Of a stretch of DNA of 11,135 nucleotides, positions 1,482-3,066 are shown in pieces. The stretch's first letter is position 1. Each line of letters starts with the position of its first letter. A program made the translations under genes and the position numbers. Origin of the DNA: a virus (taxonomy: Duplodnaviria; Heunggongvirae; Uroviricota; Caudoviricetes); IMG/VR virus record IMGVR_UViG_2671180963_000007, positions 1 to 11,135 of that record. One strand, written 5' to 3'. The notes below the pieces were generated by a model. It had not been told where the DNA came from, searched no databases, and saw nothing but the letters and a program-made list of their open reading frames with translations.

Positions 1482-1751
1482 CTATTTCATCCCGCCAATA
1501 TTTTCCCACGTCCCGTCAGCACGCAGGATTTGCAGCGGTCTTACCACGCACTGTATCTGCTTTTTATCCGCATCCAGTATCACCACCTGCGTGATTACCC
1601 TGGCCTGCTCCGGGATAATGCCATTCTCATCGGACTCCAGAATGTCTGCTGGTCCCAGTCGCAGCTGTGCTGTAAGTAACTCCCCGTTTTCACTGTCATC
1701 ATGCTTTCCGCAACCACACAGACGCTCCATAAGCTTTCTCAAAATATTCAT
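1482..1751 (-). CDS. Small protein (89 aa) homologous to the C-terminal domain of the upstream tail fibre; possible fibre-tip or assembly accessory
   Basis: ATG at 1749..1751 lies 1 nt after the stf stop (…GGAGAATGACATG…), with a GGAG Shine-Dalgarno inside the last stf codons. Its C-terminal ~60 aa (RLGPADILESDENGIIPEQARVITQVVILDADKKQIQCVVRPLQILRADGTWENIGG) align with the stf C-terminus at roughly one third identity by eye. The 133-aa ORF-track version (start 1883) overlaps stf out of frame and is not supported. Confidence 0.5.
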   Translation of the reverse strand: MNILRKLMERLCGCGKHDDSENGELLTAQLRLGPADILESDENGIIPEQARVITQVVILDADKKQIQCVVRPLQILRADGTWENIGGMK

Positions 1752-1752
1752 G

Positions 1753-3066
1753 TCATTCTCCTGTTCTGCCTGTATCACTGCCCACTTCATCCAGTCCCTT
1801 AACATCCTGCCACGGCCCGTCGCCAAACCTGACCTGCAAATGCCGAAACAGCCCCTGAACCTGTGTGGCATCTTTGGGGTCAAGAAAGGTCAGTCCGGTG
1901 ATGAGCGCACCATCTGTATCCGGGAACCAGCCATGGCTGTTTGTCTCAATAATGCTCGCCGGCCCCAGACGAAAACGGATTTGTGTCTCCCCCGGGTCGC
2001 CCTTCGGTCCCTGAGGTCCGGTTGCCCCCACCGGGCCAGCCGCACCTGTTTCTCCTTTCGGTCCCTGTGGGCCTGCCGGGCCTGCCGCACCGGTATCTCC
2101 CTTTGGACCCTGTGGACCTGCATTTCCCGTCAGACCGGTCTCTCCCCGCTCTCCCCTGTCACCTTTCGGCCCCTGCGGGCCTGCCGGACCAGCATCACCT
2201 GCCGGTCCCCGTTCGCCGGTTGCCCCGACAGGGCCGGTGTCACCGCGCTCTCCCTTATCACCCTTCGGCCCCTGAGGACCCGCGGGCCCCTGTTCCCCCT
2301 TTGGCCCGGGAGGTCCCACCACGGTGGGGATTCGGTTTACGGCCTCTTCCGCCGCTATCCTGCTTTGTTCCGCTGACTGTGCGCTTTCTGCTGACTCCCG
2401 GGCTTTTTCTGTTGCGGTCGTTGCATCCCTGGCTGCATTACCGGCTGCACTTTCTGCCGTCTTTCTTGACAATTCAGCTTCTGCTGCACTTTGTGATGAC
2501 TCACTGGCTTTTTGAGCGGCCGCAGAAGCCGAGGACGAGGACGCATCCTCTGACTGCTTTGCTGAGGCTGCACTTTCTGCCGCCTGCCGGGCTGACTCCG
2601 ATGCCTCCCCTGCTGAAGTGTCAGCATTTGCAGCGCTCTCTTCTGCCTGACTGGCTGATATGCCGGCATTCCTCGCTGACGTCTCCGCCTCTCCGGCATT
2701 CTTCTTCGCCTCCTCAGCGTGACGCGCCACCTCTTCCACCATCAGTTCAAAACGGCGCAGAGCCTCCGGACGGGCATCATCCTCCGTCATGGCACCGAGA
2801 AAATCATTCAGCGTACCGGGTTGAGAATCTTCATACACGGTGATGGTCCCGGCATGTGACGGCGGGAATCCTTCCACCAACAGAATGACGCTGTACTGAC
2901 CGTACTCAACGTCCATGCTGTAACGCCCGGCTTCATCCGGATTTTCAGAGGCCACCGTGTTCACCACCACCGTGCTGCTGGTCCGTCTGGCTTTCAGTTG
3001 AATGGTACAGTTCTCTACCGGTTTTCCTGTGCCGTCTTTCAGTACACCTGAAATCTTTACTGCCAT
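1753..3066 (-). CDS. stf: Lambdoid side tail fibre protein (Stf-like), about 437 aa, with a collagen-like Gly-X-Y tract
   Basis: N-terminus MAVKISGVLKDGTGKPVENCTIQLKARRTSSTVVVNTVASENPDEAGRYSMDVEYGQYSVILLVEGFPPSHAGTITVYEDSQPGTLNDFLGAMTEDDARPEALRRFELMVEEVA matches lambda Stf as recalled, followed by the Ala/Ser/Glu-rich region, Gly-X-Y repeats and a ~77-aa C-terminal domain. ATG at 3064..3066 has GGGG 5 nt upstream; the track's start at 3072 is a GTG. Confidence 0.9.
   Translation of the reverse strand: MAVKISGVLKDGTGKPVENCTIQLKARRTSSTVVVNTVASENPDEAGRYSMDVEYGQYSVILLVEGFPPSHAGTITVYEDSQPGTLNDFLGAMTEDDARPEALRRFELMVEEVARHAEEAKKNAGEAETSARNAGISASQAEESAANADTSAGEASESARQAAESAASAKQSEDASSSSASAAAQKASESSQSAAEAELSRKTAESAAGNAARDATTATEKARESAESAQSAEQSRIAAEEAVNRIPTVVGPPGPKGEQGPAGPQGPKGDKGERGDTGPVGATGERGPAGDAGPAGPQGPKGDRGERGETGLTGNAGPQGPKGDTGAAGPAGPQGPKGETGAAGPVGATGPQGPKGDPGETQIRFRLGPASIIETNSHGWFPDTDGALITGLTFLDPKDATQVQGLFRHLQVRFGDGPWQDVKGLDEVGSDTGRTGE
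1987..2316 (-). repeat. Collagen-like Gly-X-Y triplet repeat tract (about 36 triplets) inside stf
   Basis: Translation GPPGPKGEQGPAGPQGPKGDKGERGDTGPVGATGERGPAGDAGPAGPQGPKGDRGERGETGLTGNAGPQGPKGDTGAAGPAGPQGPKGETGAAGPVGATGPQGPKGDPGE. The DNA is very GC-rich and internally repetitive, which is why several long shadow ORFs open on the opposite strand here. Confidence 0.85.

What the first reader, a model, noticed from the sequence alone, without database searches (positions are those of the whole stretch)
1482..1990. Tail-fibre C-terminal module duplicated as a translationally coupled small gene
Seen in sequence: the stf C-terminal domain (…RFRLGPASIIETNSHGWFPDTDGALITGLTFLDPKDATQVQGLFRHLQVRFGDGPWQDV…) and the downstream 89-aa ORF (…LRLGPADILESDENGIIPEQARVITQVVILDADKKQIQCVVRPLQILRADGTWENI…) are clearly paralogous. 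The small gene starts 1 nt after the stf stop, with a GGAG Shine-Dalgarno inside stf's last codons. No lambda-type tfa chaperone gene is present. Inference: either a remnant of C-terminal cassette exchange (host-range module shuffling) or a co-expressed tip/chaperone-like protein sharing the fibre-tip fold. Both are unusual compared with the standard stf-tfa pair.
Basis: partly seen in the sequence, partly recalled or inferred. Interest (0 to 1): 0.5.

Follow-up and report, generated by a model that had tools for sequence, protein, structure and literature searches.

The report
Small tail-fibre-tip paralogue after stf gene
The 89-residue gene right after this prophage's collagen-like side tail fibre gene is a real, strongly conserved paralogue of the fibre's C-terminal knob; it is the standard, already annotated partner of this fibre type in EHEC/Stx phages, and its function has not been tested.

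Summary
The last about 64 residues of the tail fibre (stf/EPclA, 1753..3066, minus strand) and residues 28-89 of the downstream 89-aa gene (1482..1751, minus strand) are paralogous. They share 37% identity (E=9e-12, z=19 against shuffles), and both match Pfam PF06820 Phage_fiber_C. The layout AGGAG-N6-ATG, with the stf TGA stop 1 nt before the ATG, is as described.

The arrangement is not unusual. The small gene has its own PHROG (576) and a RefSeq name. It occurs in 698 of 5426 complete E. coli genomes, with a median of 11 copies. The phage collection holds 296 records with the small gene and 296 with a PfC-ended fibre, with the same organism breakdown.

It is not a decaying remnant. pN/pS is 0.05 in its PfC domain, the two copies share no DNA-level similarity, and two of its peptides were found in purified phi24B virions.

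The best reading is a separately initiated, translationally coupled late protein in the tfa position, acting on the fibre knob in sub-stoichiometric amounts. That function is inferred, not shown.

A depositor's "+1 frameshift alternate tip" idea is disfavoured. The frame upstream of the ATG shows no coding constraint (pN/pS 1.56), and no slippery site or RNA structure was found. A shift exactly at the stop codon is not excluded.

Already known; modest interest.

The parts
1753..3066 (-). stf, the EPclA-type collagen-like side tail fibre (437 aa from the ATG at 3066; the ORF listing starts it at a GTG at 3072). In 439-aa numbering: PfN residues 3-135, coiled-coil region, collagen Gly-X-Y about residues 250-363, PfC residues 365-428, then an 11-residue tail.
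   Evidence: Pfam matches: phage_tail_N 2e-69, Collagen 4e-18, Phage_fiber_C 4e-36. RefSeq WP_000279044.1, 'prophage tail fiber N-terminal domain-containing protein', lies under a 100%-identical match. The architecture is that of EPclA in PMC3368898.
1789..1980 (-). PfC (Phage_fiber_C) trimerisation knob of stf; the first copy of the duplicated module.
   Evidence: PF06820 positions 1-64/64 at residues 365-428. PfC was shown to be a trimerisation domain in PMC3368898. pN/pS is 0.20, with variable residues clustered at a few positions.
1758..1762 (-). Shine-Dalgarno AGGAG for the small gene, inside the last stf codons and 6 nt before the ATG.
   Evidence: Read directly from the sequence. The GGAG...TGA-C-ATG junction is present in all 85 sources compared.
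1753..1755 (-). stf stop codon TGA, followed by C (1752) and then the ATG of the small gene.
   Evidence: TGAC-ATG is invariant in all 85 sources compared.
1482..1751 (-). 89-aa PfC-only gene (stop codon included), annotated in RefSeq as 'phage tail fiber C-terminal domain-containing protein'. Residues 1-27 form a variable helix plus Cys/Gly-rich linker (1671..1751). Residues 28-89 form the nearly invariant PfC domain (1485..1670).
   Evidence: PF06820 1e-34. PHROG 576 matched over 1-89/89, 8e-59. RefSeq WP_001023997.1 lies under a 100%-identical match. pN/pS is 0.25 for the N-terminal part and 0.05 for PfC. Peptides were found in phi24B virions.
1440..1470 (-). Terminator-like hairpin (A-tract, GC stem, T-tract; works in both directions) about 12 nt after the small gene's stop. 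It marks the end of the conserved late region.
   Evidence: Fold energy -25.8 kcal/mol, z=-2.9. The same hairpin follows the Citrobacter rodentium copy. Similarity among loci collapses within about 30 nt after the stop.
325..1305 (-). nleB2, a type III effector arginine glycosyltransferase. It is the first cargo gene of the variable region downstream of the fibre module; context only, not part of the module.
   Evidence: Pfam SseK_NleB 1e-180; RefSeq name.

Best explanation
The 89-aa ORF is a genuine late phage gene. It is the fixed partner of tail fibres that end in a PfC knob, and it sits where lambda carries tfa.

It is translated from its own AGGAG-N6-ATG. That start is placed so that ribosomes finishing stf (TGA, one base, ATG) can re-initiate, which is translational coupling. 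It is the last gene before a terminator hairpin.

The product has a short N-terminal helix, a Cys/Gly-rich linker and a PfC domain paralogous to the fibre's trimerising C-terminal knob.

My inference is that it acts in trans on that knob as an assembly or holding factor. A paralogue of a trimerisation domain is well suited to bind unassembled fibre C-termini or the finished knob. It is then mostly released, leaving only trace amounts in virions.

Shown here or in the cited papers:
- the paralogy;
- the conserved start and junction;
- strong purifying selection;
- matching counts of the small gene and PfC-ended fibres across collections;
- expression, and low-level presence in purified virions of a related phage.

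Inferred only: translational coupling, trimer formation by the small protein, and the assembly-factor role.

The confidence of 0.55 is a blend: about 0.8 that this is a genuine, separately translated partner gene, and about 0.4 for the specific assembly-factor role.
For: Paralogy and family membership.

Conserved GGAG-N6-ATG and TGA-C-ATG junction in all 85 sources compared.

Selection: pN/pS is 0.05 in the PfC part and 0.25 in the N-terminal part, with pS 0.12-0.16, so synonymous change is plentiful.

Co-occurrence. The phage collection has 296 records with the small gene and 296 with a PfC-ended fibre, with the same organism breakdown. Among complete E. coli genomes, 698 carry the small gene and 697 carry the stf PfC. 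The pair is present in both podovirus-type Stx phages (EPclB fibre) and lambdoid prophages.

End of the operon: a terminator-like hairpin lies right after the gene, and similarity between loci ends there.

Expression. Two peptides specific to the small protein (ADGTWENIGGMK, VITQVVILDADKK) appear in the phi24B virion proteome at count 3 each. Fibre peptides there have counts of 38-181. The protein is therefore made but is sub-stoichiometric.

Partner type. The small protein's PfC domain is far less variable than the fibre's own PfC (pN/pS 0.05 against 0.20). That fits binding to a conserved phage partner better than binding to a variable host receptor.
Against: Recombinant EPclA expressed alone in BL21(DE3) already forms trimers (PMC3368898). 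The small protein is therefore not strictly required for trimerisation.

No interaction data exist.

AlphaFold2 gave only low-confidence monomer models (pLDDT 51), so nothing structural supports a complex.

No allele co-variation between the stf PfC and the small gene was seen. LD decays within tens of bases.

The virion peptides cannot tell a free 10-kDa protein from a rare fibre fusion. The phi24B authors themselves label the entry 'Spike or just gp59?'.
Confidence: 0.55

Rival explanations
1. Programmed +1 recoding. A fraction of ribosomes shift into the small gene's frame near the end of stf. This gives a longer fibre chain carrying the second PfC as an alternative or tandem tip. GenBank KU977420 annotates the gene this way ('atfT, alternate tail fiber tip').
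For: The small gene lies in the +1 frame of stf, and 46 codons are open upstream of its ATG. A depositor annotated a slippery sequence and pseudoknot for a +1 shift. The phi24B proteomics database included 'Fusion_6159_FS1/FS2' entries, and the low peptide counts would fit a product made at a few percent. The stop context, UGA followed by C, is one I recall as a poor terminator, and an SD-like AGGAG lies just upstream, loosely like prfB (sequence; the comparison is from my own knowledge). A metagenomic fibre carries four tandem PfC-like domains in one chain, so serial knobs are structurally possible.
Against: Over the 46 open codons upstream of the ATG, pN/pS is 1.56 in the small gene's frame and 0.21 in the stf frame. 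That stretch is therefore not selected as coding in the +1 frame. A shift there would also truncate the first PfC.

In the last 13 invariant codons, by reading the sequence, I see no homopolymer run or codon pair that allows re-pairing in the +1 frame. The P-site codon before the stop is GAA, and +1 gives AAU.

The junction RNA folds no better than shuffles (z=0.27), and Rfam finds nothing there.

The AGGAG overlaps the last codons rather than lying 3 nt before the shift codon as in prfB (my own knowledge).

The ATG and a well-spaced SD are invariant, which a fusion-only product would not require. No junction peptide was found in the stored part of the supplement.
Confidence: 0.12
2. Stoichiometric distal tip or adhesin. 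The small protein forms a trimer that stays docked on the fibre's PfC knob and is the true receptor-binding tip, in the way T2-type gp38 sits on gp37.
For: It has the tfa/gp38-like gene position and the same fold family as the knob. Its peptides are present in purified virions.
Against: Peptide counts are roughly ten-fold or more below those of fibre peptides. This is a rough measure, and the stored file is truncated.

Its PfC domain is almost invariant, whereas a receptor-binding tip in this recombining population would be expected to vary at least as much as the fibre's own PfC, which does vary.

Rotary-shadowed recombinant EPclA shows a 7-nm C-terminal globule made of three PfC domains alone. 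That shows the knob forms without the small protein.
Confidence: 0.15
3. Non-functional leftover of a past C-terminal module swap, kept only because it lies between the fibre gene and the effector cargo.
For: The region is highly mosaic, with LD gone within tens of bases. A chimeric protein joins the small gene's N-terminus to the stf PfC C-terminus (P0121). Decayed copies exist, for example in Citrobacter rodentium. Effector cargo begins right after the gene.
Against: pN/pS is 0.05 with ample synonymous change. The ORF is an intact 89 codons in nearly all loci. There is no DNA similarity to the stf copy, so the duplication is old yet the gene is maintained. It is kept in inducible or plaque-forming phages of two morphotypes. 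Its peptides are detected in virions.
Confidence: 0.04

Closest known systems
Pfam PF06820 Phage_fiber_C / PHROG 576 / RefSeq 'phage tail fiber C-terminal domain-containing protein' (WP_001023997.1)
   Same: The window's small gene lies under a 100%-identical DNA match to this annotated RefSeq gene. It matches the whole PHROG 576 profile (1-89/89) and the full Pfam domain.
   Different: Nothing differs. These entries are names only, and no function has been tested for the stand-alone protein.
EPclA/EPclB collagen-like prophage tail fibres of EHEC (Ghosh et al. 2012, PMC3368898); phi24B gp61 lateral fibre
   Same: The window's stf has the EPclA architecture PfN-PCoil-Col-PfC. PfC is an experimentally shown trimerisation knob. 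phi24B gp61 is the EPclB version and is followed by the same small gene, gp59.
   Different: Neither paper's main text discusses the downstream PfC-only gene. Only the phi24B supplement lists it, with a question mark.
Lambda Stf-Tfa, T4 gp37-gp38, Mu S-U and P2 H-G fibre/assembly-protein pairs
   Same: In each case a small gene sits immediately downstream of the fibre gene at the end of the late operon. The role I infer for the small gene is assembly of the fibre's C-terminal tip.
   Different: The small protein has no sequence relation to Tfa (no Pfam tfa-family match). Unlike Tfa, it is a paralogue of the fibre tip itself. The fibre also trimerises without it when expressed recombinantly.
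prfB-type programmed +1 frameshifting and lambda G/GT-type recoding in tail genes
   Same: The downstream ORF is in the +1 frame, the stop context is UGA-C, an SD-like element lies upstream, and the downstream polypeptide is present at low abundance.
   Different: There is no slippery codon, the SD spacing is wrong, no stimulatory RNA structure was found, and the upstream overlap is not under coding selection.

Membership tests
Pfam PF06820 Phage_fiber_C | Score above the curated gathering cut-off (25 bits) over the domain model | tested here: met
   Small protein: 119.1 bits, residues 28-89 on model positions 1-64/64. stf: 123.6 bits, residues 365-428.
PHROG 576 (stand-alone 89-aa 'tail fiber protein') | Full-length match to the family profile | tested here: met
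   E=8.1e-59, residues 1-89 on profile positions 1-89/89.
PfC trimerisation domain (Ghosh 2012) | Forms a trimer in solution | not testable with these tools
   Shown for the fibre's PfC (SEC/MALLS). For the small protein it is inferred from 37% identity only. AlphaFold2 monomer models have low confidence.
Lambda-type tail fibre assembly protein (Tfa family) | Sequence match to a tail fibre assembly family | tested here: not met
   Pfam and NCBIfam scans of the small protein returned only PF06820, or nothing.
Lambda-type tail fibre assembly protein (Tfa family) | Gene immediately downstream of the fibre gene, co-expressed late | tested here: met
   1-nt spacing, internal SD, and a terminator after the gene. 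Position only; this is no proof of function.
Lambda-type tail fibre assembly protein (Tfa family) | Required for fibre folding or assembly | not testable with these tools
   Recombinant EPclA trimerises without it, which argues against a strict requirement.
Intramolecular chaperone / self-cleaving fibre C-terminus (Peptidase_S74 type) | Match to the chaperone domain at the fibre C-terminus | tested here: not met
   No such Pfam match in stf or in the small protein.
Translationally coupled gene pair | Stop and start overlapping or within a few bases, with the SD inside the upstream gene | tested here: met
   AGGAG-AA-TGA-C-ATG, invariant in all 85 sources compared. Actual coupling was not measured.
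Programmed +1 frameshift (prfB-like) | P-site codon that can re-pair in the +1 frame next to a slow stop or rare codon | tested here: not met
   The last codons are ACA GGA GAA TGA C. GAA shifts to AAU, which cannot re-pair, and there are no homopolymer runs in the last 13 codons (my reading of the sequence).
Programmed +1 frameshift (prfB-like) | Stimulatory element: SD 3 nt upstream of the shift codon, or a downstream RNA structure | tested here: not met
   The AGGAG overlaps the last two sense codons. The junction fold has z=0.27 against shuffles, and Rfam finds no match.
Programmed +1 frameshift (prfB-like) | Trans-frame protein product detected | tested here: inconclusive
   The small-protein peptides in phi24B virions fit either product. 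No junction peptide appears in the stored, truncated supplement.

The most novel reading that the evidence does not exclude
A few percent of ribosomes recode at the UGA-C stop of stf, or the small protein joins the knob. Either way a minority of fibres would carry a second, nearly invariant PfC knob. A tandem-knob or mixed-knob fibre of this kind would be a previously undescribed way for collagen-like phage fibres to display two tips from one locus.
Probability: 0.12. Interest if true: 0.6.

Novelty: already known. Interest (0 to 1): 0.28.

Why it matters
This fibre module sits at the boundary where EHEC/EPEC lambdoid prophages and Stx phages carry their type III effector cargo. It is present about 11 times per genome in the strains that have it. 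Knowing whether the small PfC protein is an assembly factor, a tip component or a recoded extension would clarify two things:
- how these collagen-like fibres are built;
- what determines adsorption of Stx and effector-carrying phages.

The gene, its family and its pairing with the fibre are already catalogued, and at least two groups have already raised the fusion-or-separate-protein question. What this window adds is confirmation and population-genetic evidence, not a discovery.

Tried and rejected
1. Structure. Two AlphaFold2 runs on the small protein, with alignments of 5 and 11 rows (the second including four PfC-like repeats from a metagenomic fibre), both gave pLDDT 51. I therefore ran no fold search. 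The phi24B preprint also reports no confident AlphaFold model for this domain.

2. Solved structures. Sequence and profile searches of the PDB found nothing for PfC. Only the fibre's N-terminal 94 residues and its collagen region match.

3. Deeper homologues. A profile search of 1.84 billion cluster representatives gave only 79 hits, mostly fragments or frameshifted E. coli copies. The family is too narrow for covariation or a deep alignment.

4. Co-variation between stf PfC alleles and small-gene alleles. LD vanishes within tens of bases and shows no long-range signal.

5. RNA structure or pseudoknot at the junction. The fold is no better than shuffles, and Rfam finds only sok elsewhere in the window.

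6. More divergent loci. The GTDB species scan returned only an E. albertii fragment and a 725-bp 'Xanthomonas pisi' contig that is probably contamination. The Citrobacter rodentium copy is a decayed remnant.

7. Literature. I found no paper on the stand-alone gene ('alternate tail fiber tip', AU6Stx1). 'Exchangeable effector loci' is not in the held library, so that context rests on my memory of Tobe et al. 2006.

8. The built-in terminator scan missed the hairpin after the gene, probably because its A/T tracts extend the stem. A direct fold shows it.
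Full report
WHAT IS IN THE WINDOW. The left 3.1 kb, read on the minus strand, is the distal end of an EHEC-type lambdoid prophage late region. It holds a 437-aa side tail fibre (stf, 1753..3066) and then an 89-aa gene (1482..1751). A hairpin follows (about 1440..1470), then the effector gene nleB2 (325..1305) and a 96-codon nleC fragment (1..291). The stretch 1300..3129 is 100% identical to E. coli O103:H2 str. 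12009 and related strains. RefSeq names the two genes there 'prophage tail fiber N-terminal domain-containing protein' (WP_000279044.1) and 'phage tail fiber C-terminal domain-containing protein' (WP_001023997.1). Right of about 3128 the window switches to a Qin-like prophage remnant. It holds a DUF968 fragment, hokD/sok, a YobI-type NTPase, DUF977, an exonuclease and an integrase. None of 5426 complete E. coli genomes has this junction.

OBSERVATION. The stf stop TGA (1755..1753) is followed by one base and then the ATG (1751..1749). AGGAG (1762..1758) lies 6 nt before the ATG. The stf C-terminus and residues 28-89 of the small protein align at 37% identity over 62 residues, E=9e-12. The Smith-Waterman score is 106 against 27.5 +/- 4.1 for 2000 shuffles (z=19). 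Both match the complete Pfam PF06820 Phage_fiber_C model (1e-34 and 4e-36). At the nucleotide level the two copies are not detectably similar (local score 20 against 17.7 +/- 2.1; third-codon-position identity 43%). The duplication is therefore ancient, not a recent cassette scar.

HOW COMMON IT IS. The small gene has its own PHROG (576), matched end to end. It is found in 296 phage records, mostly Stx1- and Stx2-converting phages. These include short-tailed 933W/phi24B-like phages with the longer EPclB fibre and long-tailed lambdoid ones, at 88-96% protein identity. A search with the fibre's own PfC segment also returns 296 records with the same organism breakdown, usually two places per record. 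From these matching counts I infer that every phage record with a PfC-ended fibre also has the small gene. I did not compare the two record lists one by one. Among complete E. coli genomes, 698 of 5426 carry the small gene (6816 places, median 11 per genome). 697 carry the stf PfC segment (6160 places). Outside Escherichia I found only a decayed copy in Citrobacter rodentium. A profile search of 1.84 billion cluster representatives returned just 79 hits, nearly all fragments of the same genes. The arrangement is therefore standard for this fibre class, but the class is taxonomically narrow.

IS IT A REAL GENE? I compared 85 sources: the 80 viral-contig loci, four other loci fetched earlier, and this window. 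All keep the GGAG...TGA-C-ATG junction, and nearly all keep an intact 89-codon ORF. Across 57 distinct alleles, synonymous diversity is substantial (pS 0.12-0.16). Non-synonymous diversity is very low in the PfC part (pN/pS 0.05) and moderate in the N-terminal 27 codons (0.25). The fibre's own PfC is more variable (pN/pS 0.20), with changes clustered at a handful of positions. Similarity among loci collapses within about 30 nt after the small gene's stop. A strong hairpin with flanking A and T tracts lies there (-25.8 kcal/mol, z=-2.9), and the C. rodentium copy keeps it too. The small gene is therefore the last conserved gene of the late region, and the variable effector cargo starts right after it. 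From memory, this matches the 'exchangeable effector loci' of Tobe et al. 2006; that phrase was not found in the held library. These results reject the 'decaying remnant' reading.

THE FRAMESHIFT IDEA. GenBank KU977420 (phage AU6Stx1) annotates a 130-aa version of this ORF as 'atfT, alternate tail fiber tip'. Its note predicts a slippery sequence and pseudoknot for a +1 frameshift. The small gene is indeed in the +1 frame, and 46 codons are open upstream of its ATG in 76 of 79 loci. Over those 46 codons, however, pN/pS is 1.56 in the small gene's frame and 0.21 in the stf frame. Variation follows the stf frame only, so the upstream extension is not selected as coding. A shift there would also cut the first PfC in half. 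The last about 13 codons are invariant and cannot be tested this way. By reading the sequence, I see no homopolymer run or re-pairing codon there (the last codons are ACA GGA GAA TGA C). The AGGAG overlaps the final codons instead of lying 3 nt upstream as in prfB (my own knowledge). The junction RNA folds no better than shuffles (z=0.27), and Rfam finds nothing there. A shift exactly at the UGA-C stop cannot be excluded, but nothing positive supports it.

EXPERIMENTAL LITERATURE. Ghosh et al. 2012 (PMC3368898) studied this fibre type as EPclA. It is a dumbbell-shaped trimer, and PfC on its own is a trimerisation domain with little or no alpha-helix. Recombinant EPclA expressed alone in BL21(DE3) trimerises. 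The paper does not mention the downstream gene. A 2026 preprint on phi24B (10.64898/2026.04.10.717836) shows that the EPclB fibre gp61 forms the six lateral fibres. It notes that AlphaFold gives no confident model of the C-terminal domain. Its proteome supplement holds database entries 'Fusion_6159_FS1/FS2' and 'gp59_start', labelled 'Spike or just gp59?'. It also lists two peptides unique to the small protein (ADGTWENIGGMK, VITQVVILDADKK) at count 3 each, against 38-181 for fibre peptides. I found no junction peptide, and none of the N-terminal or other small-protein peptides I searched for, in the stored file, which is truncated. The polypeptide is therefore made and co-purifies with virions at a low level. 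Whether it is free or fused is not settled.

MOST LIKELY MECHANISM. I favour a separately initiated protein, translationally coupled to stf, that occupies the tfa position. It carries a PfC domain, so it is expected to trimerise or to pair with PfC chains. It would act on the fibre's C-terminal knob as an assembly or holding factor that is mostly released.
- Supporting this: the invariant, well-spaced SD and ATG; strong protein-level constraint; matching counts with PfC-ended fibres; low abundance in virions; and a PfC domain much less variable than the fibre's own, which suggests a conserved phage partner, not a variable host receptor.
- Against a strict chaperone role: EPclA trimerises without it.
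- No interaction or structural evidence could be obtained.
I put about 0.8 on 'a genuine, separately translated partner gene' and about 0.4 on the specific assembly-factor role.

COMPARISON AND NOVELTY. By sequence the gene is a full member of PF06820 and PHROG 576, and it lies under a 100%-identical match to an annotated RefSeq gene. By position it resembles tfa, but it is not a Tfa-family member and, unlike Tfa, it is a paralogue of the fibre tip. It meets the anatomical criteria for a coupled gene pair and fails the sequence criteria for prfB-like +1 recoding. The feature is already known and catalogued, and only its function remains open. Interest is modest (0.28). The most novel surviving reading is a recoded or mixed double-knob fibre, at about 12% probability.

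Noticed in passing
window 3120-3135: Abrupt junction. Left of about 3128 is the lambdoid late region, which in O103:H2 continues into lom and J. Right of it is a Qin-like prophage remnant. No place in any of 5426 complete E. coli genomes covers 80% or more of window 1300-3700, the stretch that spans this junction. It is either a rare deletion or recombination between prophages, or an assembly chimera.
   Followed up: partly
window 3947-4271: An intact hokD-type toxin gene (Pfam HOK_GEF 5e-20) with its sok antisense RNA (Rfam RF01794, 105 bits) sits between the fibre module and the NTPase gene.
   Followed up: partly
window 4751-8383 (minus strand): A 1210-aa YobI-like P-loop NTPase (Pfam PF20693, 8e-123) lies in the prophage remnant near the integrase. 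Its AT-rich composition looks like an accessory or defence-type cargo gene. I did not examine it further.
   Followed up: no
window 1-291 (minus strand): nleC is truncated to 96 codons, with a stop at the window edge. RefSeq marks the same fragment as a pseudogene in O103:H2 str. 12009. In that genome a tail fibre assembly gene fragment lies further downstream, hinting at an older stf-tfa module overwritten by the collagen-PfC cassette plus effectors.
   Followed up: partly
L091:3505-5202 (protein P0144): A metagenomic phage-like contig encodes a 565-aa collagen-like fibre with four tandem internal PfC-like domains, each flanked by Gly-X-Y. PfC-type knobs can therefore be strung along one chain. 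No small PfC gene follows it.
   Followed up: partly
protein P0121: A 92-aa database protein joins the small gene's N-terminal 40 residues to the C-terminal half of the fibre's PfC. This suggests recombination between the two paralogues, or an assembly artefact.
   Followed up: no
window 1789-1980 and related loci L005-L084: Amino-acid variation in the fibre's PfC is concentrated at about eight positions (for example AS/GN/MS, H/N/Q/Y, D/G, Q/R, L/F/M). Alleles are shuffled in tracts of tens of bases, consistent with frequent gene conversion among the about 11 copies per genome. These positions may form a receptor-contact surface.
   Followed up: partly
L003 (NZ_JPLE01000138.1, 725 bp): A 725-bp contig labelled Xanthomonas pisi carries a 93%-identical copy of the small gene. 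It is most likely E. coli or phage contamination of that assembly.
   Followed up: no
L088:3479-4237 (Citrobacter rodentium ICC168): A decayed version of the module. A 166-aa fusion of a PfN fragment to PfC is followed by the small gene, which has a 1-nt deletion after codon 6. The same hairpin follows, then nleG. The module boundary is kept even in a remnant.
   Followed up: yes
window 3083-3104 (minus strand): A terminator-like GC-rich hairpin with a T-run lies immediately upstream of the stf start, between the junction and the fibre gene.
   Followed up: no
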